Positions 3,067 to 63,834 of a DNA stretch of 64,000 nucleotides are shown here, piece by piece. A model generated the notes under the pieces. It was not told where the DNA came from. It saw only the letters and a list, made by a program, of their open reading frames with translations, and did not search any database. Position 1 is the first letter of the stretch; each line of letters starts with the position of its first letter. This DNA is from Bacteroidales bacterium (GTDB taxonomy: Bacteria; Bacteroidota; Bacteroidia; Bacteroidales; F082). The stretch is from positions 5,613 to 69,612 of the forward strand of contig JAFOBJ010000085.1 of the NCBI GenBank assembly GCA_017381865.1, written 5' to 3'. The translations under genes were made by a program, and so were the position numbers.

Positions 3067-4116
3067 ATGGACATAAATTTCTTAAATGCGATTTTGAACA
3101 CTCATAGCGTTTCTGGTTTTGAGAATAAAGCAGGAAAACTTTTTCTAGATTATATCGAACAATATGTTGATTCCACTGACACAGATATTATAGGAAACAG
3201 CTATGCTAATATTGGCAATATGTCAGAAGACAATTCAACTCTGAAAATTCTATTAGAAGCACATATAGATGAGATTGGATTTCAAGTTATATATATTGAT
3301 GACAGTGGTTTTATCTACATTCGTAAAAATGGAGGTATTGATATACAATGTATTCCCGGTTCACAAATAGTTATACAAACATCATCTGGTGAAGAATTAT
3401 TGGGAGTTATTGGAAAGAAGCCAATACATTTGACAGCTCCAGAAGAGAGAAACAAAAATATTGAATTGCATACTTTGTGGATTGATACTGGTTTATCTCC
3501 TGACGAAGTGAAGAAAAAGATTTCCATCGGAGATGTTGTCGCTTGGCAGTCTAATGTGATACATTTGTCAGATAAAAGAATCTCATCTAAAGGTTTAGAC
3601 GACAAAGTCGGTGTATATATAATAAGTCAAGTCTTAAAAAAATTATCGACAAATAAGGTTTCTCATGTTCAAGTATGCGGTATTGCATCTGTTCAAGAGG
3701 AAGTTGGTCATCGAGGAGCAATGGTTTGTTGTCACAAATTAAATCCAGATATAGCAATTAGTATAGATGTTGACTTTGCAACAGATGTTCCTGACTGTCC
3801 TAAAACTAAATTTGGTGATATATTATTAGGGAACGGTGTCGTGATTCATAGAAGTATTGATAATACCAGCTCAATAGCATTATTAGCCGAAAAAATAGCA
3901 CAGGAGAATAATATAAAATACCAGATTTCAGCACGACCAACCTCTGTAGGAGGAACTAATGCAATGGTACTTCAACAAACAAAAGGCGGTATAAGAACAA
4001 TTAGCTTAGGAATACCATGCAGATATATGCACACACCTGTTGAATTGTGTGATTTGGATGATATAAAATCTGCAATTGAATTGTTATATCACTTCATTAT
4101 AGAAATCAACAATTAA
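3067..4116 (+). CDS. M42 family aminopeptidase (FrvX/CelM-like)
   Basis: Motifs LEAHIDEIGF, KGLDDKVG and VQEEVGHRGA and about 350 aa fit the M42 glutamyl aminopeptidase family. GTG at 3052 is an alternative start. Confidence 0.8.
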   Translation: MDINFLNAILNTHSVSGFENKAGKLFLDYIEQYVDSTDTDIIGNSYANIGNMSEDNSTLKILLEAHIDEIGFQVIYIDDSGFIYIRKNGGIDIQCIPGSQIVIQTSSGEELLGVIGKKPIHLTAPEERNKNIELHTLWIDTGLSPDEVKKKISIGDVVAWQSNVIHLSDKRISSKGLDDKVGVYIISQVLKKLSTNKVSHVQVCGIASVQEEVGHRGAMVCCHKLNPDIAISIDVDFATDVPDCPKTKFGDILLGNGVVIHRSIDNTSSIALLAEKIAQENNIKYQISARPTSVGGTNAMVLQQTKGGIRTISLGIPCRYMHTPVELCDLDDIKSAIELLYHFIIEINN

Positions 4117-4334
4117 ATATTTATAAGTTTTTTTATGTCCAGGAAATGAAAAGACACAAAAACTTCCATAGTAACTTTTCCCTCAAAAATATTTTCATAA
4201 TCGAAAAATAATCTTTACGTTTGGCACGTTAAATTCACGTTTTGTTAACAATTTAAGCCGATATGGTATATAACAGAGACAATACAACCGAACTCCCTAT
4301 CAAATTAGAATAGGACAATGATAATGTTTCAAAA

Positions 4335-4625
4335 ATGTCTATGGATATAACAATAGATGGCTATTCTATAGGAATTATAATGGAATTCAAATATGATGAC
4401 AAGTTGAATCCATTCAAGAATTTATTGACATTATACCCAGAAGAATCTAGCTGCTTTGAATTCAGCAAAAACAATGTAACAGAAATAAAATATACAGAAT
4501 ATATTAAAGAAAGTTCTTATTACGAATCAGATACTGACGTAGATTATTTCACATATACATACGACGGCAAATACCCTGTTACTAGAGATGACGGCTGGAG
4601 CAAAGAATATTTTGAATACAAATAA
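4335..4625 (+). CDS. Hypothetical small acidic Tyr-rich protein
   Basis: 96-aa ORF followed by a hairpin terminator. No recognisable family and no clear promoter. Confidence 0.35.
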   Translation: MSMDITIDGYSIGIIMEFKYDDKLNPFKNLLTLYPEESSCFEFSKNNVTEIKYTEYIKESSYYESDTDVDYFTYTYDGKYPVTRDDGWSKEYFEYK

Positions 4626-4642
4626 TATTTTAATACGTAAAA

Positions 4643-4677
4643 ATAAAAGGTCATTTCGAACTGAAGTGACCTTTTAT
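4643..4677. terminator. Hairpin terminator between convergent genes
   Basis: ATAAAAGGTCA ... TGACCTTTTAT arms flanked by A and T runs, between the 4335..4625 ORF (+) and mnmA (-). Confidence 0.6.
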
Positions 4678-4690
4678 TTTCAATTTTCAA

Positions 4691-5752
4691 TTATCCAATC
4701 ACTCCACTTCCCAAAACAACCGGCTCCGTCTCGTGATAGATGATGCCGAATTGTCCGGCTGCTACTCCTGAAATAGCTTCGTCTGATATTATTGTCAAGC
4801 CGTTTTCTGTGAGTTTAAGATTTCCTAAGTTAAATCCTGGTTGATGGCGTATCTTATATCGTACTCTTTGTCCGTCAGCTAATGTAATAGCAGGATTCAT
4901 CGCCATGACATCAACCAAGTCGATGTTGTTTGTGTATTGAGCTATAGGATCGTAGCCTTTTGAAACATAGATAAGATTTCTTTCTGTGTCTTTCTTGACG
5001 ACGAACCAAGGACCTCCGCCTAAACCCAAACCTTTTCTCTGACCTATAGTATGGAACCAGAATCCCTTATGTTTTCCGAGTTTCTTGCCTGTTTCCATCT
5101 CTATGATGTCGCCTTCTTTTTCGCCTACATATTCTCTGATATAATCATTGTAGTTGATTTTACCCAAGAAACAAATACCTTGAGAGTCGTGGCGTTGTGC
5201 GCTTGGAAGCTTATGGAATTCCGCTAAACGACGCACCTCAGCCTTTGGCAAATCGCCGATAGGGAACATCGCCTTTGATAATTGATGATATGTTATTCTA
5301 GCGAGGAAATCGGTCTGGTCTTTAAAAGTATCGACTGCTGTTCCGAGCCATGAGATGCCGTTTTCGTCATACCACTGACGAGCGTAGTGACCGGTAGCTA
5401 TTCTGTCAAACTGGTAGCCCATCTTTTCCTCAAAGGCACCGAATTTAATCATTCTGTTACACATTACGTCAGGATTTGGCGTCAATCCTTTGCGTACCGA
5501 ATCCATGGTATAAGAAGCTACTCTGTCGTAATATTCTTTTTGTAAATCAACGATGTCGAATTTACATCCGTATTTTTTAGCGATGTATGTCGTTATTTCA
5601 ATATCTTCTTCTGAAGGACAATCCATCAAATCGTCTTTACCTTCGAGGCCAATTTTAATATAAAAGATATGAGGGTCGAAGCCTTGTTCTTTCAAAATTG
5701 GGACCATTACGGAGCTATCGACGCCACCAGACACCAAAGCAGCAATATTCAT
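4691..5752 (-). CDS. mnmA: tRNA-specific 2-thiouridylase
   Basis: N-terminal PP-loop ALVSGGVDSSV, 353 aa, conserved MnmA-like layout throughout. Confidence 0.93.
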   Translation of the reverse strand: MNIAALVSGGVDSSVMVPILKEQGFDPHIFYIKIGLEGKDDLMDCPSEEDIEITTYIAKKYGCKFDIVDLQKEYYDRVASYTMDSVRKGLTPNPDVMCNRMIKFGAFEEKMGYQFDRIATGHYARQWYDENGISWLGTAVDTFKDQTDFLARITYHQLSKAMFPIGDLPKAEVRRLAEFHKLPSAQRHDSQGICFLGKINYNDYIREYVGEKEGDIIEMETGKKLGKHKGFWFHTIGQRKGLGLGGGPWFVVKKDTERNLIYVSKGYDPIAQYTNNIDLVDVMAMNPAITLADGQRVRYKIRHQPGFNLGNLKLTENGLTIISDEAISGVAAGQFGIIYHETEPVVLGSGVIG

Positions 5753-57447: not shown

Positions 57448-59508
57448 ATGGAAAATAACGACAAACATTTCAAACGTTACACGGTAACGACAGCATTACC
57501 TTACGCTAATGGTCCAGTGCATATCGGTCACTTGGCAGGCGTTTATATCCCAGCAGATACTTACGTCCGTTACCTCCGAATGAAGGGTGAAGAGGTTTTG
57601 TTTGTCGGCGGCTCAGATGAACACGGCGTGCCTATCACTATCAAAGCTGAAAAAGAAGGCTGCACTCCTCAAGATATCGTCGATAGATACCATAATATAA
57701 TCAAAGACTCTTTCGAAAAATTGGGCATCAGCTACGACATTTATTCTCGTACAAGCTCAAAGACTCACCATGAGACAGCAGCTGCTTTCTTCAAGAAACT
57801 CTACGAAGAAGGCAAATTCATCGAAAGAGAATCAGAACAATTCTTCGACCCTGAACGTAACAAATTCTTATCAGACCGTTACATCATCGGTACTTGTCCT
57901 AAATGCGGCAACGACCATGCTTATGGCGACCAATGCGAGAAATGCGGTTCTTCAATGAGCCCTGATGAACTCATCAATCCTCACTCAGCTCTCAGCGGCG
58001 CACAACTCGTTAAGAAAGCTACAAAACACTGGTATCTTCCTTTAGACCAATACGAACAATGGCTCCGCGAATGGATTATTGAAGGTCATAAAGAATGGAA
58101 ACCTAATGTTTATGGTCAAGTCAAGAGCTGGCTCGACAATGGTCTCCAGCCACGCGCTGTTACCCGCGACCTCGACTGGGGCGTGCCTGTCCCTGTTGAA
58201 GAAGCCGACGGTAAAGTGCTTTACGTCTGGTTCGACGCTCCTATCGGTTACATCTCTAACACAATAGAACACTGCGCTGAAAATGGTACAGACTGGAAAA
58301 AATGGTGGAAAGACGAAGAAACAAAACTCGTTCACTTCATCGGTAAAGACAACATCGTTTTCCACTGCATCATCTTCCCTTGCATGTTGAAAGCTTACGG
58401 TGATTATATCGTTCCAGAAAACGTTCCTGCAAACGAATTCCTCAACCTCGAAAACGACAAGATTTCAACATCTCGTAACTGGGCTGTTTGGTTGCATGAA
58501 TATCTTGAAGAATTCCCTGGAAAACAAGACGTCCTTCGTTATGTTTTGACAGCTAACGCTCCTGAAACAAAAGACAATAACTTCACTTGGAAAGATTATC
58601 AAGATAGAAATAACAACGAATTGCTCGCTATCTTCGGCAACTTCGTAAACCGTACTTTGGTTCTTACACATAAATATTTCGAAGGTAAGGTTCCAGCTAT
58701 GATTAACCTTAACGAAAAAGACGAAGCCGCTATCGAAGAAATGAATCAATATCCTGATAAGATTGCTAACCTTCTTGACACTTATAAATTCCGTGAAGCA
58801 TTGTCAGAATTGATGAACCTTGCTCGTCTCGGTAACCGTTACCTTACAGAAAACGAACCTTGGAAACAATTCAAGACAGATCCTGAAAGAGTCAAGACAG
58901 TTCTCGCAGTTTCATTGCAAATCGTCGCTAAACTCGCTATCTTGTCAGAACCATTCTTGCCATTCTCAGCTAAGAAATTACAATCAATGATTGGCTTGGA
59001 AGTAAGCGGCTGGAATCAAGCTAAGGAAACAGTTTTATTGAACGAAAACGCTACTATCGGCGAAGTTGAATTGTTATTCACAAAAGTTGAAGACGAGACA
59101 GTGGTAGCACAAGTCAATAAATTGGAAGAGACAAAGAAACAAAACGAACTCAACGCATGGGCTCCAAATCCAATCAAACCTAACACCAACATCGATGAAT
59201 TTGGCAAGATGGATATCAGAGTCGGTACTGTTTTAGAATGCGTTAAAGTTCCAAAAGCAGACAAGTTATTACAATTCTTGATTGACGACGGTATGAACAA
59301 ACGTACTATCGTTTCAGGAATCGCTAAATATTATCCAAATCCTGAAGAATTAGTCGGCAAGCAAGTATGCTTCATCGCTAACTTCGAGCCTCGTAAGTTG
59401 AAAGGCATCGTCAGCGAAGGCATGATTTTATCAGCTGAAGACAAAGACGGAAGATTGGTTGTCATGTCACCAAGTCAGCCTGTTGCTCCAGGAAGTTCAG
59501 TAGGATAA
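57448..59508 (+). CDS. metG: Methionine--tRNA ligase (with C-terminal tRNA-binding domain)
   Basis: [11 protein letters not shown] (HIGH), KISTSRN (KMSKS-like), CPKCG...CEKCG zinc knuckles, and a C-terminal EMAP/Trbp111-like domain. Confidence 0.96.
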
Positions 59509-59529
59509 TTGACCAAAGTCTATTTAAGA

Positions 59530-59569
59530 GAAGGATAGAATGCATCTTCAATGTGTTCTATCCTTTTTT
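59530..59569 (+). repeat. 40-bp direct repeat copy A (also the metG terminator hairpin and a relic yraN 3' end)
   Basis: GAAGGATAGAATGCATCTTCAATGTGTTCTATCCTTTTTT is identical to 60550-60589. AAGGATAGAA / TTCTATCCTT stem plus a T run. Confidence 0.95.
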
Positions 59570-60521
59570 ATTTTAATGTCAAAATAGGATTGTTTAATAA
59601 AGTATCTATTATTTGATGGTAAACGTGATTTTCATTAACTTTAGAAATGCTCATAATTTTATTGCCAGCATCTTTTGAAGAAGCACCGCAATGGTATATT
59701 TGTTCATTTTTATCATTATAATCAAGAACAATATATCTATCATGAAAAATACCACAAGTTTTGCGAAAGGTAATAGATATTTTAGGATATTGCTTGCAAA
59801 AATCTATAAATTCTTTTTGATGTAAACCATAACTGATATTATCACTAAAGATAGTAATAGTAATGTTTGGATTTACATTTTTTAGCATCACGAGAGTTTT
59901 TAATCCTATGTAATTATCTATCACATATATTTTATTTTTGGCAGTTTTATATATACTATCATAAGCTAAGTTTGCTTCAACTGTTTCCCCATTCAAAATC
60001 AGATATTCTTTTTTAATGTGAATATCTGTAAAATCTTTAATTATTTTCAACACATCATCTTTATTAATCATTGTGTTTTTTATGTGTGCAATATCAGATG
60101 TATTTTGAGATGTTTGAATTGCTATTTGAAGTAACTCCCTGTTTTCAATAAAATTATTGTTTCCTATTATAAAATCTTTCATTTCCTTGAAAGCCTTAAT
60201 TAGAATTTTACTTTGTTTTATAGCGAGTTCTCCTTTTAAAACAGTCATAAGCATATAAACACCTTGTTCTGTAAATGCGAAAGGTAACTTTCTGGTTCCT
60301 CCCCAGTTTGATGTCAAATTTTTTGACATCAAGATTTTTTCATATTCTTCTTTTGTAAGTTGGAAACGAAAGTCTTCATCAAATTTTTCAATATTGTTTT
60401 TTACCTGCTGGTTAAAACTTCTTGTTTGATAACCATATATTTTTGCGAGATCAGAATCGAGCATTACTTTTATACCTCGAATAGTATAAATAAGATTTTT
60501 AATATCAAGTACTATTTCCAT
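59568..60521 (-). CDS. ORF6N (KilA-N-related) DNA-binding domain protein with PLD-like C-terminal region
   Basis: N-terminus IRGIKVMLDSDLAKIYGYQTRSFNQQVKNNIEKFDEDFRFQLT...NWGGTRKLPFAFTEQGVYMLMTVL is ORF6N-like. The C-terminus has FHDRYIVLD...CGASSKDAGNK (HxRx4D...GxSxK). Confidence 0.7.
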   Translation of the reverse strand: MEIVLDIKNLIYTIRGIKVMLDSDLAKIYGYQTRSFNQQVKNNIEKFDEDFRFQLTKEEYEKILMSKNLTSNWGGTRKLPFAFTEQGVYMLMTVLKGELAIKQSKILIKAFKEMKDFIIGNNNFIENRELLQIAIQTSQNTSDIAHIKNTMINKDDVLKIIKDFTDIHIKKEYLILNGETVEANLAYDSIYKTAKNKIYVIDNYIGLKTLVMLKNVNPNITITIFSDNISYGLHQKEFIDFCKQYPKISITFRKTCGIFHDRYIVLDYNDKNEQIYHCGASSKDAGNKIMSISKVNENHVYHQIIDTLLNNPILTLK

Positions 60522-60530
60522 AACAATTTC

Positions 60531-60908
60531 TTATTTATAACTTCTGACTGAAGGATAGAATGCATCTTCAATGTGTTCTATCCTTTTTTCGTTGTTTTTG
60601 TCGATGACGATAGCGATGATATCGAATCGAACGTCGTTGTCGTATTGATAACGATTGACGAAAGAATTTGCAGCCCAGATGAGATGTCGCTGCTTATAAA
60701 CATCGACAGTCGCTTCCGGTTCGACGAGGCAGGTGCTGTGACGTGTCTTCACTTCGACAAAGACGATAGTGTCGCCGTCTTTTGCGATGATGTCGACTTC
60801 TTTGTGTCCGCACACCCAATTCTTTTCTAAAATCTGATACTTACGCTCGAGAAGATACTCCAGAGCGATTTGTTCGCCTAAGGCGCCAATTTCATTGTGA
60901 GTTGCCAT
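60531..60908 (-). CDS. yraN: YraN family (UPF0102) endonuclease-like protein
   Basis: 125 aa. GEQIALEYL, EVDIIA and VFVEVKTR motifs of the PD-(D/E)xK YraN family. Confidence 0.85.
   Translation of the reverse strand: MATHNEIGALGEQIALEYLLERKYQILEKNWVCGHKEVDIIAKDGDTIVFVEVKTRHSTCLVEPEATVDVYKQRHLIWAANSFVNRYQYDNDVRFDIIAIVIDKNNEKRIEHIEDAFYPSVRSYK
60550..60589 (+). repeat. 40-bp direct repeat copy B (inside the yraN 3' coding end)
   Basis: Identical to 59530-59569. Encodes KRIEHIEDAFYPS of YraN on the minus strand. Confidence 0.95.
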
Positions 60909-60931
60909 AAATTTTGTTTGGTTTAAAGTTC

Positions 60932-61504
60932 TTAGCTCTTAGTTCTACGTTCAACAAGTTCGCATATAATGTGTCCTATCATGATGTGGCTTTCTTGTAT
61001 GCGAGGCGTGTCGGTAGATGGTACATTAATTAATATGCCGCCGAAGTCTTTCATCGCGCCGCCTGTTGCGCCTGTGAGAGAAATGATTTTTATATCTTTT
61101 TCTTTACATACTTTATATGCTTCAATTATGTTACGGCTATTGCCGCTTGTCGAGATTCCCACGAGCACATCGCCTTTTCTTCCCGATGCTGTGAGAAGTC
61201 TGCTATACACGAAGTCGTAGCCGTAGTCGTTGCTGACTGCCGTCATATAAGAGGTGTTGCAATGCAGAGCTTCTGCGTTGAGAGGCTGACGATCCAGATA
61301 AAAGCGTCCGCTGAGTTCCGAGGCGAGATGCTGTGCGTCGGCAGCGCTACCTCCATTGCCGCAGAAATGAATCTTGCCGCCATTACGCAGACTTTCTACA
61401 ATGACATCAACCGCAGCTTCAATGGATTGCAACAAATTCTCATCAGATAAAATCTTGCTTTTTACCTCGATGCTTTGCTCAATAGACTCTTTTATTCTGT
61501 TCAT
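60932..61504 (-). CDS. gmhA: Phosphoheptose isomerase (SIS domain; GmhA/DiaA family)
   Basis: GNGGSAADAQHLASEL and ISTSGNS motifs; 190 aa. Minus-strand -7 box TAACTTTG (61525-61532). Confidence 0.8.
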   Translation of the reverse strand: MNRIKESIEQSIEVKSKILSDENLLQSIEAAVDVIVESLRNGGKIHFCGNGGSAADAQHLASELSGRFYLDRQPLNAEALHCNTSYMTAVSNDYGYDFVYSRLLTASGRKGDVLVGISTSGNSRNIIEAYKVCKEKDIKIISLTGATGGAMKDFGGILINVPSTDTPRIQESHIMIGHIICELVERRTKS

Positions 61505-61580
61505 AACTTAATTTTTGCTTATTGCAAAGTTACAGATAATTTGTTGAAATAGGGGAGGATTTTACAGGATTTTTTTAGTA

Positions 61581-61628
61581 TTCCTATTTCCTCAATTCCT
61601 TAAATCCTCAAATCCTCAATTCCTAAAA
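61581..61628 (+). repeat. 8-nt-period G-free array (TTCCTATT TCCTCAAT TCCTTAAA TCCTCAAA TCCTCAAT TCCTAAAA)
   Basis: Read directly. The same word family recurs at 63965-64000. Confidence 0.9.
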
Positions 61629-61634
61629 TTTCAC

Positions 61635-61642
61635 TATCTTTG
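61635..61642 (+). promoter_or_regulatory. -7 promoter box TATCTTTG upstream of the S46 peptidase gene
   Basis: Matches TAnnTTTG, 33 nt before ATG 61675. Confidence 0.5.
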
Positions 61643-61674
61643 CACAAATTGAAATCAATCAAAATTTTATCAAT

Positions 61675-63834
61675 ATGAAAAAAATCTTTTTATCATTATT
61701 TATCGTGATGTCGGTTTTTATGAATGTAAGAGCCGATGAAGGAATGTGGATTCCTATGTTGTTGCAAAACAACGAAAAAGAGATGCAAGAAATGGGTATG
61801 AACATCACAGTTGAAGACATCTATTCTATCAATAACAGCAGTATGAAAGACGCTGTCGTCTTATTCGGCGGCGGTTGCACCGGTGAAATCGTCAGCGACA
61901 AAGGTCTCCTTTTCACTAATCATCACTGCGGTTTCGACTGGATTCAACATCACAGCACAGTAGAACACGATTACCTCACCGACGGTTTCTGGGCGATGAG
62001 CTTCGAAGAAGAACTTCCTTGTCCTGGCTTGACAGCTGTTATGTTAAAGAAAATGGAAGACGTCACAGACCGCGTCCTCGCTGGCGTTGAAAAAAGCACA
62101 ACAACAGAAGAAAGAGCTGAAATCGTTAAAAATAACATCGCAAAAATTATAGAAGAGACTTCTGCTACAACAGACTACGAACTTGAAATCAAGTCTTTCT
62201 ATCACGGAAATAAATATTATATGATTTATAACGAGGTATTTAAAGACGTCCGTATGGTCGGTACTCCTCCTTCAAATATCGGTAAGTTCGGCGGCGACAC
62301 CGACAACTGGGTTTGGCCTCGTCACACTGGCGACTTCTCAATCTTCCGTATCTACGTCTCTCCAGAAGGCAAAGCCGTTGAATATAACGAAGATAACGTT
62401 CCTTACAAACCAGCTTATCATTTCCCAATCTCATTGAAAGGCGTTGAAGAAGGCGACTTCACTTTCGTATTCGGTTATCCAGCTCGTACTAACGAATATC
62501 TTCCTTCAGTGGCTGTAAATCAAGAAGCTAACGTCATTTATCCTGTCAGCGTTGACCTTCGCGGCAAGATTCTCGACATCTATAATAAATATCAAGAAAA
62601 AGACCCTAAAGTTAGAATTCAATATGCTTCAAAACATGCTCACCTCGGCAACGGCTGGAAAAAATGGATGGGCGTGATAGAAGGTATCAACAACTTCAAA
62701 GGCGTTGAAAAGAAACACGCTTTCGATAAGGCTTTCACAAAATGGGCTAACTACAGCCGTTCAAGAGGCGCATACCTCGAACTCATCAAAGACTTCAACA
62801 GAGTTTATGCTGAATACGAACCTTATCGCTTGGCAACGACTTACCTCTCAGAGACAGCTCTTCAAATTGAAGTCTTGACATTCGCTGCTAACTTCAACGC
62901 ACTCGCTCAGGTGACAAAAGACACTCCTCAAGAACAAATCGACGCTCTCGTCGCTGAAGCAAGAGAAGCTGCAAAAGTATTTTTTAAAGATTATTATCAA
63001 CCAATAGACCAAGAAGTTGCAGCTATGGTTCTTCAAGAATATATCAACAACCAGCCTGCCGACTTCCGTCCAGAGCTTCTCAACACTATCGTTGAAAAAT
63101 ATGATAACGTTCAAGCTTATGTTGATGAATTGTTTGCAAAGACAATGTTCGCTTCAGAAGAAAATGTTAATAATTTATTAGATAATTTCAAGGCTTCAAA
63201 AGCAAAGAAAATCGCTAAAGACCCAGCATTGATGGCATATAAGAACGTGATGGATTTCTATTTTACAAACGTAAGACCTAATGTTGCTAAGATTAGCAAT
63301 GAAATATCTGAGTTACAAAGAATCTTCATGCGCGGACAAATGGAGTTCCATGCAGAACAAAATCCTGATAAGATGATGTATCCAGATGCTAACTTCTCAT
63401 TACGCGTCACTTACGGTAAGGTAGGCGGTTTCTCACCAAGAGATGCTGTTCATTACAAACACTACACAACATTAGACGGCATCATGCAAAAGGAAAATCC
63501 AGAGATTTACGATTATGTTGTTACAGACCGTTTGCGCGAGCTTTACGAAACAAAAGATTACGGTCGTTATGCTGATAAAGACGGCAGCATGCACGTTGCT
63601 TTCATCGCTGGCAACCACACAACAGGCGGTAACTCAGGCAGTCCAATTTTAAATGCCGACGGTCATCTTCTCGGTCTCAACTTCGACCGCACATGGGAAG
63701 GAACAATGAGCGACTTGATTTATGACCCATCAATCTGTAAAAATATCTCTGTCGACGTTCGTTACGTTTTGTTCATCATCGACAAATACGCTGGCGCAAC
63801 ATGCTTGATTGACGAAATGACAATCGTTGAATAA
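61675..63834 (+). CDS. S46 family dipeptidyl-peptidase (DPP7/DPP11-like)
   Basis: Signal peptide, then ADEGMWIP; TNHHCG (His); GGNSGSP (Ser); 719 aa. Confidence 0.9.
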   Translation: MKKIFLSLFIVMSVFMNVRADEGMWIPMLLQNNEKEMQEMGMNITVEDIYSINNSSMKDAVVLFGGGCTGEIVSDKGLLFTNHHCGFDWIQHHSTVEHDYLTDGFWAMSFEEELPCPGLTAVMLKKMEDVTDRVLAGVEKSTTTEERAEIVKNNIAKIIEETSATTDYELEIKSFYHGNKYYMIYNEVFKDVRMVGTPPSNIGKFGGDTDNWVWPRHTGDFSIFRIYVSPEGKAVEYNEDNVPYKPAYHFPISLKGVEEGDFTFVFGYPARTNEYLPSVAVNQEANVIYPVSVDLRGKILDIYNKYQEKDPKVRIQYASKHAHLGNGWKKWMGVIEGINNFKGVEKKHAFDKAFTKWANYSRSRGAYLELIKDFNRVYAEYEPYRLATTYLSETALQIEVLTFAANFNALAQVTKDTPQEQIDALVAEAREAAKVFFKDYYQPIDQEVAAMVLQEYINNQPADFRPELLNTIVEKYDNVQAYVDELFAKTMFASEENVNNLLDNFKASKAKKIAKDPALMAYKNVMDFYFTNVRPNVAKISNEISELQRIFMRGQMEFHAEQNPDKMMYPDANFSLRVTYGKVGGFSPRDAVHYKHYTTLDGIMQKENPEIYDYVVTDRLRELYETKDYGRYADKDGSMHVAFIAGNHTTGGNSGSPILNADGHLLGLNFDRTWEGTMSDLIYDPSICKNISVDVRYVLFIIDKYAGATCLIDEMTIVE

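What the first reader, a model, noticed from the sequence alone, without database searches (positions are those of the whole stretch)
59530..60589. 1020-bp single-gene insertion flanked by perfect 40-bp direct repeats that duplicate the yraN 3' end
Seen: GAAGGATAGAATGCATCTTCAATGTGTTCTATCCTTTTTT occurs at 59530-59569 and at 60550-60589. Copy B is inside yraN and encodes KRIEHIEDAFYPS, after which the gene ends in VRSYK-stop. Copy A sits next to the metG stop. Read on the minus strand in the same frame, copy A continues as ...AFYPSLK-stop, which looks like a displaced original yraN 3' end. The repeat also forms the hairpin plus T run that serves as the metG terminator. Between the copies lies one gene (ORF6N family), 9 nt downstream of and co-oriented with yraN, in DNA visibly more AT-rich than either flank. 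Established knowledge: integrative elements that target gene 3' ends duplicate the att core and supply a replacement 3' end. Inference: this is an integrated element or its minimal remnant. It is unusual in carrying no recombinase, so it either relies on a recombinase supplied in trans or is a decayed island.
Basis: partly seen in the sequence, partly recalled or inferred. Interest (0 to 1): 0.7.

Follow-up and report, generated by a model that had tools for sequence, protein, structure and literature searches.

The report
Defence gene cassette inserted after yraN
A 1-kb piece of foreign DNA carrying one candidate anti-phage nuclease gene sits between two housekeeping genes of a gut Bacteroidales bacterium, bracketed by a duplicated 40-base terminator hairpin; related strains either carry it or lack it cleanly, yet it encodes no enzyme for moving itself.

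Summary
A perfect 40-bp direct repeat (59530-59569 and 60550-60589) brackets 980 AT-rich bases that hold one gene. In the window's own species-level group, four different downstream spacer haplotypes each occur both occupied and empty. So gain or loss exactly at the 40-mer has happened repeatedly.

The gene is intact and under purifying selection (dN/dS about 0.1). It is a full-length member of PADLOC candidate defence family PDC-S05, with an ORF6N DNA-binding domain and a C-terminal domain of phospholipase-D-nuclease fold. It has no promoter motif of its own and is probably co-transcribed with gmhA-yraN. The downstream repeat copy is a strong intrinsic terminator for metG.

The 19 nt after the upstream repeat are a genuine yraN-type tail, homologous to cassette-free yraN genes of other genera. 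The repeat is therefore shared homology used for recombination, not a transposase footprint.

No recombinase lies within 6 kb. I found no conserved termini and no hopping of identical alleles. This is a recombinase-less single-gene defence islet and a variant of a known kind. How it first inserted is unresolved.

The parts
59530..59569 (.). Repeat copy A. It is the original chromosomal yraN 3' end, now non-coding. On the + strand it is the intrinsic terminator of metG, and it is also the only hairpin after the cassette gene.
   Evidence: Exact 40/40 match to copy B. 19-bp stem plus T6, -23.3 kcal/mol, z -5.9. Terminator scan hit. In empty sites the single copy has this copy's right flank.
59520..59529 (-). 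Displaced original end of yraN (TCT CTT AAA TAG, i.e. ..S L K stop), directly after copy A.
   Evidence: Sequence. Identical to the live yraN end in empty sites L124-L127 and in YraN proteins P0143 and P0148.
59568..60521 (-). Cassette gene, 317 aa. Member of PADLOC candidate defence family PDC-S05. ORF6N DNA-binding domain, a variable helical middle part, and a PLD-like C-terminal domain.
   Evidence: ORF. Pfam ORF6N E 7.9e-33. PADLOC PDLC04869 E 6.3e-106 over residues 6-310. dN/dS 0.09-0.14.
60240..60494 (-). ORF6N (KilA-N/Rha-like) DNA-binding domain, residues 10-94.
   Evidence: Pfam PF10543, 113 bits against a cut-off of 27.8. PHROG anti-repressor families match.
59847..60245 (-). Middle segment, residues 93-225. 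It is swapped by recombination between alleles: 16-24% nt divergence and dS 0.94 in L011, while both gene ends are like the flanks.
   Evidence: Mismatch profile. Segment-wise dS and dN.
59571..59969 (-). C-terminal domain of phospholipase-D-nuclease fold, residues about 185-317. It holds the invariant motif H260-D-R-Y-I-x-x-D ... C-G-x-S-S-K-D (nt 59670-59744).
   Evidence: AlphaFold2 pLDDT 80-90 over this part. Foldseek hits to PLD 7e0m, Zucchini 4h4a, NucT 6ehi, Nuc 1byr, BfiI 2c1l and Tdp1. Invariant columns.
60522..60549 (-). Left end of the inserted DNA: a 19-nt yraN-type tail (AGTCAGAAGTTATAAATAA, giving ..S VRSYK stop; 60531-60549) plus a 9-nt gap before the cassette ATG.
   Evidence: Sequence. 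The tail is homologous to native tails of cassette-free yraN in L114 and L111. All 8 contexts of RSYK-type YraN P0124 carry the cassette.
60550..60589 (.). Repeat copy B, inside yraN. It encodes (E)KRIEHIEDAFYPS.
   Evidence: No synonymous change between window and L005 in these 13 codons, although pS is 0.68 in the rest of yraN.
60531..60908 (-). yraN (UPF0102), 125 aa in the occupied form. Empty-site alleles are 122 or 127 aa.
   Evidence: Pfam and NCBIfam. Tail classes.
60932..61504 (-). gmhA-like SIS-domain gene, first gene of the inferred gmhA-yraN-cassette operon.
   Evidence: Pfam SIS_2 E 2.1e-29. Same order in relatives.
61525..61532 (-). The only Bacteroidetes-type -7 promoter motif (TAACTTTG) on this strand in 59500-61700. 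It lies 21 nt upstream of the gmhA ATG.
   Evidence: Motif scan. Use as a promoter is an inference.
57448..59508 (+). metG, convergent with yraN. Its terminator is repeat copy A.
   Evidence: Pfam tRNA-synt_1g E 4e-160..

Best explanation
What it is. This is a recombinase-less, single-gene anti-phage defence islet. One foreign, promoterless gene has been recombined into the 3' end of yraN. The gene encodes an ORF6N DNA-binding domain joined to a PLD-fold nuclease-like domain (PADLOC family PDC-S05).

How it entered (inferred). The incoming DNA carried its own short yraN 3' fragment: the 40-46-nt hairpin segment plus a ...RSYK-stop tail. This implies that in a donor the gene lay just downstream of a yraN. 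Recombination through the hairpin segment placed the cassette in the chromosome. That segment is the only part of yraN conserved at the DNA level, because it doubles as the terminator of the convergent metG. The recombination was either Campbell-type integration of a circle or homology-anchored illegitimate recombination. The other junction is at an A-run. The result is one repeat copy on each side. The upstream copy keeps yraN whole with the imported tail. The downstream copy is the displaced original yraN end and still terminates metG, and now the cassette gene too.

How it is expressed (inferred). It rides on the gmhA-yraN transcript.

What it has done since (shown from comparisons). It has been inherited, and shuffled by homologous recombination, in several related species. 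It is repeatedly lost precisely, or regained, by recombination between or at the 40-mers. This gives a common presence/absence polymorphism.

What the protein does (inferred from family and fold). It binds DNA through ORF6N and cuts nucleic acid with a dimeric PLD-type active site during phage infection.
For: - Insertion and polymorphism: empty sites have one 40-mer, the SLK/SLR/SLNKSPRR/SYR ends and metG adjacent (L008, L010, L120-L127).
- Within the group of YraN at least 94% identical to the window's, cluster representatives split 23 occupied-type tails to 17 empty-type tails.
- Four spacer haplotypes downstream of copy A each occur occupied and empty (the fourth inferred empty only from SYR-type YraN tails, with no empty locus read), which requires several events exactly at the 40-mer.
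- Foreign origin: GC 0.25-0.29 against 0.39-0.49 in the flanks.
- Imported yraN tail: 15/19 nt identity, same frame and same stop position as cassette-free yraN of other genera. RSYK-type YraN always comes with the cassette.
- Age and function: the same junctions occur in lineages with yraN 80-90% identical. dN/dS is 0.09-0.14.
- Recombination within the gene: L011 is a mosaic.
- No mobility gene: the neighbours are S46 peptidase, gmhA, yraN, metG and a TonB receptor.
- No hopping: the exact proteins P0013, P0085 and P0124 each sit in one context only.
- Terminator and operon.
- Protein: PDC-S05 E 6e-106, PLD fold, invariant H..R..D..GxSSKD motif.
- One PDC-S05 representative lowered plating of T7 and T5 about 1000-fold in E. 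coli (preprint 10.1101/2024.09.26.614923).
Against: - No donor arrangement (yraN followed by the cassette, without copy A) was found. No other family member among the 80 genome loci lies next to a yraN.
- Recombination confined to 40 bp is inefficient for RecA, yet it must have happened several times.
- Both repeat copies share the same G/A state within each lineage (GG/GG in the window, AG/AG in L005). This needs gene conversion or re-integration.
- The perfect identity of the copies could instead reflect an active site-specific system.
- The PLD assignment rests on fold only. No Pfam or PDB sequence match exists. Lys of the HxK motif is Arg here.
- The experimentally tested PDC-S05 protein has a RhuM domain and is not a close homologue.
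Confidence: 0.55

Rival explanations
1. Ancestral operon with deletion scars. yraN with the 125-aa RSYK-type tail followed by the ORF6N gene is the old state of this clade, and copy A is a partial yraN and terminator duplicate made when the gene first arrived. All 122/127-aa 'empty' sites are products of deletion between the two copies, not naive targets. The cassette has only ever been lost, never re-gained.
For: The tail is yraN-like and varies between occupied lineages like a normal gene end: SVRSYK, SLRSYK, SCRIFK. L117 in the same synteny group has a ..SYK.. tail without the cassette. Cassette divergence roughly tracks host divergence. Deletion between direct repeats in cis needs no competition with long homology arms, and it explains four spacer haplotypes in both states.
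Against: To make copy A next to a full-length tail, the first event would have had to copy a 46-nt stretch that ends 21 nt before the insertion point. That takes three template switches rather than one crossover. Forms of 122 aa (SLK/SLR) dominate among YraN less than 86% identical to the window's (41 of 72 representatives). This looks like a widespread native form.
Confidence: 0.2
2. Active minimal integrative element mobilised in trans. The 1020-bp unit excises as a circle and re-integrates at the yraN hairpin through a tyrosine recombinase (Xer-like or an integrase of another element) encoded elsewhere in the genome. That enzyme would recognise the imperfect palindrome GGATAGAATGCA-TCTTCAA-TGTGTTCTATCC.
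For: The repeat has the 12-7-12 layout of a recombinase core site. The copies stay identical (40/40, 39/39, 45/46) and change in concert. Repeated gain or loss occurs exactly at the 40-mer. The element carries a gene-end mimic, as attP sites of 3'-end-targeting islands do.
Against: The palindrome is fully explained as the metG terminator. It is equally conserved in empty sites. No recombinase lies within 6 kb. No larger integrase-bearing element was seen at this site in any relative. Other repeat-bracketed family members have unrelated repeats, many without hairpins.
Confidence: 0.15
3. Self-mobilising gene. The ORF6N-PLD protein itself nicks and joins DNA through a covalent phospho-histidine intermediate and inserts its own gene, producing long and variable target duplications.
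For: Exact repeats of 30 bp or more bracket 7 of 69 family genes at unrelated sites and in different phyla, against 3 of 161 control ORFs (p = 0.009). Examples are 63 bp perfect at uvrA in L086 and 105-108 bp in L017 and L029. The protein has a PLD fold. My own knowledge, not tested here: PLD enzymes use a covalent intermediate, and BfiI can catalyse transesterification.
Against: The enrichment largely disappears with an inexact-repeat test: 15/76 against 8/95, p = 0.04, and p = 0.31 when counting independent sites only. Neighbouring unrelated genes are bracketed too. There are no conserved cassette ends, and the boundaries range from inside the ORF to 545 nt beyond it. Identical proteins never occur at two sites. 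In the window the 'duplication' contains an imported yraN tail, so it is not a staggered-cut footprint.
Confidence: 0.06
4. Footprint of an ordinary transposon or IS whose transposase was lost. The 40 bp would be a target-site duplication.
For: Direct repeats immediately flank a discrete AT-rich insert.
Against: There are no terminal inverted repeats. A duplication of 40-46 bp is longer than the 2-29 bp I know of for prokaryotic transposons (my own knowledge). There is no room for a second gene. The DNA after the upstream repeat is yraN-derived.
Confidence: 0.03

Closest known systems
PADLOC 'phage defence candidate' PDC-S05 (single-gene system; ORF6N/RhuM-type proteins)
   Same: Full-length HMM match (PDLC04869, E 6.3e-106). 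Single gene with an ORF6N N-terminus. One representative of the class protected E. coli against T7, T5 and T4.
   Different: The tested representative carries a Virulence_RhuM domain. The window protein instead has a PLD-fold C-terminus that no Pfam model covers. No experiment exists for this sub-family.
Genomic islands integrated at gene 3' ends by tyrosine recombinases (attL/attR direct repeats, element-borne replacement 3' end)
   Same: The direct repeat equals the target gene's 3' end. The element supplies a substitute gene end. Empty sites have one copy. Loss is precise.
   Different: No integrase. Only 980 bp with one promoterless gene. No sign of movement to new cells or sites. The repeat is fully explained as coding sequence plus terminator.
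Minimal mobile elements / defence 'hotspots' between conserved core genes (my own knowledge, e.g. Neisseria MMEs: variable genes exchanged by homologous recombination in conserved flanks)
   Same: A variable accessory gene sits between conserved housekeeping genes. There is a presence/absence polymorphism within the species. Alleles are mosaics made by recombination.
   Different: Those need no flanking repeats. Here the events map to a 40-bp repeat rather than to the long flanks.
Integron gene cassettes
   Same: A promoterless single ORF with minimal non-coding DNA next to an imperfect palindrome, expressed from an upstream promoter.
   Different: No IntI. The palindrome is host coding sequence and lacks the RYYYAAC/GTTRRRY core sites (sequence). 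There is no array.
PLD-superfamily nucleases (Nuc, NucT, BfiI, Zucchini)
   Same: The predicted fold of residues about 185-317 matches them (Foldseek probability 0.97-1.00). There is a single H-x-[KR]-x4-D motif per chain, which implies a dimeric active site.
   Different: Arg replaces the motif Lys, and G-x-S-S-K-D replaces GSxN. No sequence-level match. Activity is untested.

Membership tests
PADLOC PDC-S05 | Match to a PDC-S05 profile over most of its length | tested here: met
   PDLC04869: E 6.3e-106, residues 6-310 of 317 against profile positions 16-302 of 306.
PADLOC PDC-S05 | Confers phage resistance | not testable with these tools
   Only a different representative (with a RhuM domain) was tested, in a preprint.
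Pfam ORF6N (PF10543) | Score above the gathering cut-off | tested here: met
   113.1 bits against 27.8, residues 10-94. All 24 aligned homologues match.
Phospholipase D superfamily nucleases | PLD fold | tested here: met
   Model pLDDT 80-90 for residues 185-317. Foldseek hits: 7e0m E 4e-4; Zucchini, NucT, Nuc and BfiI with probability 0.97-1.00.
Phospholipase D superfamily nucleases | HxK(x)4D(x)6GSxN catalytic motif | tested here: inconclusive
   The invariant motif is H260-D-R262-x4-D267 ... G279-x-S-S-K283-D. His and Asp are present, Lys is replaced by Arg, and the spacing is longer. Superposition on a catalytic His was not available.
Phospholipase D superfamily nucleases | Sequence-profile membership (Pfam PLDc families) | tested here: not met
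   No PLD family at E up to 1 in any of 24 members. No PDB sequence hit with the profile.
Tyrosine-recombinase integrative element | Integrase gene inside or next to the element | tested here: not met
   One ORF between the repeats. The neighbours within 6 kb are housekeeping genes.
Tyrosine-recombinase integrative element | Direct repeats at both ends that match a single copy in empty sites | tested here: met
Tyrosine-recombinase integrative element | Excised circular form / demonstrated site-specific recombination | not testable with these tools
   The short contigs L003 and L004 (1058 and 1040 bp) are what a k-mer graph gives for a 40-bp repeat, so they say nothing about circles.
Integron cassette | attC with RYYYAAC / GTTRRRY core sites and a nearby IntI | tested here: not met
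   The 40-mer has neither core on either strand (read). No integrase lies within 6 kb.
Insertion sequence / transposon | Terminal inverted repeats and a transposase | tested here: not met
   No inverted repeat joins the two ends of 59570-60549. The only gene is ORF6N-PLD.
Dispersed REP-like terminator element | Many copies across the genome | tested here: not met
   Two copies in 64 kb. The metagenome scan found the core only at yraN. The rest of the genome was not available.

The most novel reading that the evidence does not exclude
The 1020-bp unit (one gene plus a 40-46-nt mimic of the yraN end) is a minimal integrative element that still cycles between a circle and the yraN terminator hairpin. 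The recombinase would be either an unlinked host enzyme or the cassette's own ORF6N-PLD protein acting through a phospho-histidine intermediate. More broadly, long-repeat-bracketed insertion of promoterless single defence genes next to housekeeping genes, seen at about 10 unrelated sites in several phyla, would reflect a so-far undescribed gene-capture mechanism.
Probability: 0.12. Interest if true: 0.85.

Novelty: new variant of a known kind. Interest (0 to 1): 0.45.

Why it matters
It is a clean, natural example of how a single defence gene can be added to a housekeeping operon without breaking anything. The duplication of a 40-base segment preserves both the end of yraN and the terminator of metG, and it gives the newcomer a promoter and a terminator for free. 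The same repeat later allows scar-free loss, so the gene behaves as a switchable accessory within one species. It also assigns a PLD-nuclease fold to a very large (thousands of members), multi-phylum and experimentally unstudied branch of a candidate anti-phage family. If the recurrent repeat-bracketed arrangement turned out to reflect a dedicated mechanism, it would be a new route of gene capture. On present evidence that is a minority reading.

Tried and rejected
- Independent integration in L011. Its cassette is only 90% identical while its flanks are 97-98% identical. Rejected: the divergence is confined to the middle 400 bp (dS 0.94 against 0.13-0.17), so this is a recombination mosaic.
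- L029 and L031 as the same cassette at two different sites. Rejected: they share the left flank at 87%, so it is one site with a later rearrangement.
- Hairpins as a general insertion target. Rejected: 5 of the 10 repeat stretches folded (repeats bracketing family members and three control genes) do not fold better than shuffles.
- Conserved cassette termini. None found.
- yraN's 3' end as a general att site for other elements. L111-L116 are a different synteny. L117 has a CsgG operon without a repeat. No integrase-bearing island was seen.
- Donor search. The closest relatives outside the yraN site are at most 71% identical. The L086 cassette has no close relative elsewhere. Few full-length copies lie on plasmids (7 of 75 records) and one lies in a phage contig.
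- Sequence-level link to PLD families or to solved structures. None.
- Family-wide enrichment of bracketing repeats. Significant with exact repeats (p = 0.009) but not robust with inexact repeats and independent sites (p = 0.31).
- The downstream side of the L012/L138 lineage, which has the most native-like tail. It could not be read because both contigs end in the cassette.
Full report
**Observation.** The 40-mer GAAGGATAGAATGCATCTTCAATGTGTTCTATCCTTTTTT occurs at 59530-59569 and 60550-60589 with no mismatch. It occurs nowhere else in the window even at 3 mismatches, and 0.00 matches are expected by chance. The identity stops on both sides.
- metG, plus strand, 57448-59508;
- a 317-aa ORF6N gene, minus strand, 59568-60521;
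- yraN/UPF0102, minus strand, 60531-60908, 9 nt upstream of the ORF6N gene;
- a gmhA-like SIS gene, minus strand, 60932-61504.

GC falls to 0.25-0.29 between the repeats, against 0.39-0.49 outside them. On the metG strand the repeat is a 19-bp stem followed by T6. Its energy is -23.3 kcal/mol with z = -5.9, so it is an intrinsic terminator. On the yraN strand it encodes (E)KRIEHIEDAFYPS.

**Empty sites exist.** A metagenome scan with a 33-nt core of the repeat returned one occupied contig and two contigs with a single copy. In both single-copy contigs yraN ends ...AFYPSLK-stop or ...AFYPSLR-stop and abuts metG. YraN homologues fall into tail classes. All 125-aa ...S[VL]RSYK forms carry the cassette, in 8 of 8 contexts of P0124. 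The 122-aa SLK/SLR/SYR forms and the 127-aa SLNKSPRR forms are empty. L124-L127 are the exact empty counterpart of the window. They consist of the left flank of copy B, one 40-mer, and the right flank of copy A, and their flanks are 96.3-97.4% identical to the window. Among YraN cluster representatives at least 94% identical to the window's, 23 have occupied-type tails and 17 have empty-type tails. This is a common within-species polymorphism.

**Events map to the 40-mer.** Downstream of copy A there are at least four unrelated spacer haplotypes:
- a short spacer, in the window and L009;
- an 'SLNKSPRR' spacer, in L001, L002, L130, L131, L136 and L137;
- a hairpin spacer, in L011 and L005-7;
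- a fourth type, in L132.

Each haplotype also exists in the empty state: L124-127; L120-123; L008 and L010; and the SYR-type YraN proteins. Exchange through the long yraN and metG flanks would carry the spacer along with the cassette. All eight combinations therefore require several crossovers within, or between, the 40-mers. Deletion between the two copies in cis is the simplest way to get this.

**Age and selection.** The same unit with the same junctions occurs in lineages whose yraN is only 80-90% identical to the window's (L005-7, L012). The cassette gene is under purifying selection, with dN/dS 0.09-0.14, so it is not a remnant. One allele (L011) has window-like ends but a middle 400 bp with dS 0.94. 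It is a recombination mosaic, not a separate insertion.

The 13 yraN codons inside the 40-mer show no synonymous change between the window and L005, although pS is 0.68 in the rest of yraN. The single copy in empty sites is just as conserved. The segment is therefore constrained at the nucleotide level, as expected for a terminator embedded in a coding end. This also accounts for much of the near-identity of the two copies (40/40, 39/39, 45/46). One concerted difference remains unexplained: both copies are GG in the window and both are AG in L005.

**The replacement end is a real yraN tail.** The 19 nt after copy B are AGTCAGAAGTTATAAATAA in the window, TCTTAGAAGTTATAAATAA in L005 and TTGTAGAATTTTTAAATAA in L012. 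They match the native ends of cassette-free yraN genes in other genera at about 15 of 19 positions, in the same frame and with the same stop position (L114 TTGTAGAGGTTATAAATGA; L111 TGCTAGAATTTGTAGATAA). So the inserted DNA brought a yraN 3' fragment with it. The repeat is then homology shared by donor and recipient, not a footprint of staggered cleavage. The right junction joins the cassette stop codon (..TTAAAATAA) to the A-run that starts the 40-mer, and this A-run varies from 5 to 8 A between genomes.

I infer one of two routes. One is single-crossover integration of a circle made of the 40-46-mer, the tail and the gene. The other is homology-anchored illegitimate recombination. The alternative order of events, in which yraN(125 aa)-cassette is ancestral and every empty site is a deletion scar, cannot be excluded. 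It is listed as the main rival.

**No mobility machinery, no hopping.** Within 6 kb there are only housekeeping genes. The insert has no terminal inverted repeats. Proteins identical to given family members always sit in one context.

**The protein.** Pfam sees only ORF6N, at residues 10-94, and PHROGs call it anti-repressor-like. PADLOC matches candidate defence system PDC-S05 over the full length, E 6.3e-106. An AlphaFold2 model is confident for residues about 185-317. That part matches PLD-superfamily structures: phospholipase D 7e0m, Zucchini, NucT, Nuc, BfiI and Tdp1. The family-invariant residues are H260-D-R-Y-I-x-x-D ... C-G-x-S-S-K-D. This resembles one HKD-type half-site with Arg in place of Lys, so membership by motif is inconclusive and membership by sequence profile is not met. 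A preprint reports that one PDC-S05 representative, which carries a RhuM domain, reduced plating of T7 and T5 about 1000-fold. The family is very large. Nearly all of the 8000 scored candidates matched. There are 597 loci among species representatives from Bacteroidales, Treponema, Lachnospiraceae, Peptoniphilus, Streptococcus, Sneathia and others. Occasional copies lie on plasmids and one lies in a phage contig.

**Expression (inferred).** The only Bacteroidetes-type -7 motif on this strand between 59500 and 61700 lies 21 nt before gmhA. The cassette ATG is 9 nt after the yraN stop. The only hairpin after the gene is copy A.

**Is repeat-bracketing a property of the family?** Exact repeats of 30 bp or more bracket 7 of 69 family genes, against 3 of 161 control ORFs (p = 0.009). 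Examples at unrelated sites:
- L086: 63 bp, perfect, duplicating the uvrA promoter and its first 7 codons, which are fused in frame to the cassette gene;
- L017: 105 bp;
- L029: 108 bp;
- L033 and L022: 78 bp each.

With inexact repeats the contrast weakens to 15/76 against 8/95 (p = 0.04), and to p = 0.31 when only independent sites are counted. Unrelated neighbouring genes are bracketed as well: a YhcG nuclease in L091 and an AAA_14/DUF4143 ATPase in L014. The repeats share no motif, and half of them are not hairpins. The cassette boundaries also vary. I read this as a general signature of how accessory single genes enter these genomes, not as evidence for a mechanism encoded by the gene. 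The more novel reading keeps a low probability.

**Verdict.** The best description is a recombinase-less, promoterless, single-gene defence islet that was recombined in through a terminator and gene-end mimic and is kept as a presence/absence polymorphism. It is a new variant of a known kind and of moderate interest.

Noticed in passing
L047 3276-5171 (Lachnospiraceae oral taxon 107, GL890591.1): A family member (3947-4975) sits inside a CRISPR-like array of 30-36-nt repeats with a period of about 65. There are nine copies upstream, the last truncated after 20 nt. Three copies downstream begin with a second copy of the leader-proximal degenerate repeat.
   Followed up: partly
L091 2582-3979: The neighbouring DUF1016/YhcG nuclease gene is itself bracketed by direct repeats of about 135-157 bp at 93-94% identity. 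A third partial copy lies upstream of a paralogous ABC-transporter operon.
   Followed up: no
L014 1656-3235: An AAA_14/DUF4143 ATPase gene is bracketed by a perfect 38-bp repeat that forms an 11-bp-stem hairpin.
   Followed up: no
window 59509-59529 and the equivalent spacer in L001, L005, L008, L010, L120, L132: The short stretch between the 40-mer and the metG stop is hypervariable. At least four unrelated haplotypes occur within one species-level group, several of them built of small palindromes such as GTCACCGAGAC...GTCTCGGTGAC.
   Followed up: partly
window 61589-61629: Five tandem copies of an 8-bp unit (TCCTCAAT/TCCTTAAA) lie just upstream of the gmhA promoter motif. The gmhA-yraN intergenic region (about 60896-60968) also carries insertions and deletions between relatives.
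   Followed up: no
protein P0235 (YraN homologue, 129 aa): It ends ...AFYPSYKSFYPSVR, an internal FYPS duplication that looks like an imprecise scar at the same site.
   Followed up: no
L117 77-3287 and L118: In a related lineage a 23S_rRNA_IVP gene lies between gmhA and yraN. A four-gene CsgG/DUF4810/GNA1162-like operon lies between yraN and metG, without any repeat of the 40-mer.
   Followed up: partly
L001 2740-4806 compared with window 61675-63834: The S46 peptidase of L001 is 96% identical in DNA to the window's over the first 683 nt and only 57% identical in protein overall. Part of the allele has been replaced.
   Followed up: no
window 60307-60333 (+): A 12-bp-stem hairpin with a T-run lies on the antisense strand inside the cassette gene (terminator-like scan).
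   Followed up: no
L033 5088-5474 (-): A fragment of a Virulence_RhuM gene lies inside the repeat-bracketed segment next to the ORF6N gene.
   Followed up: no
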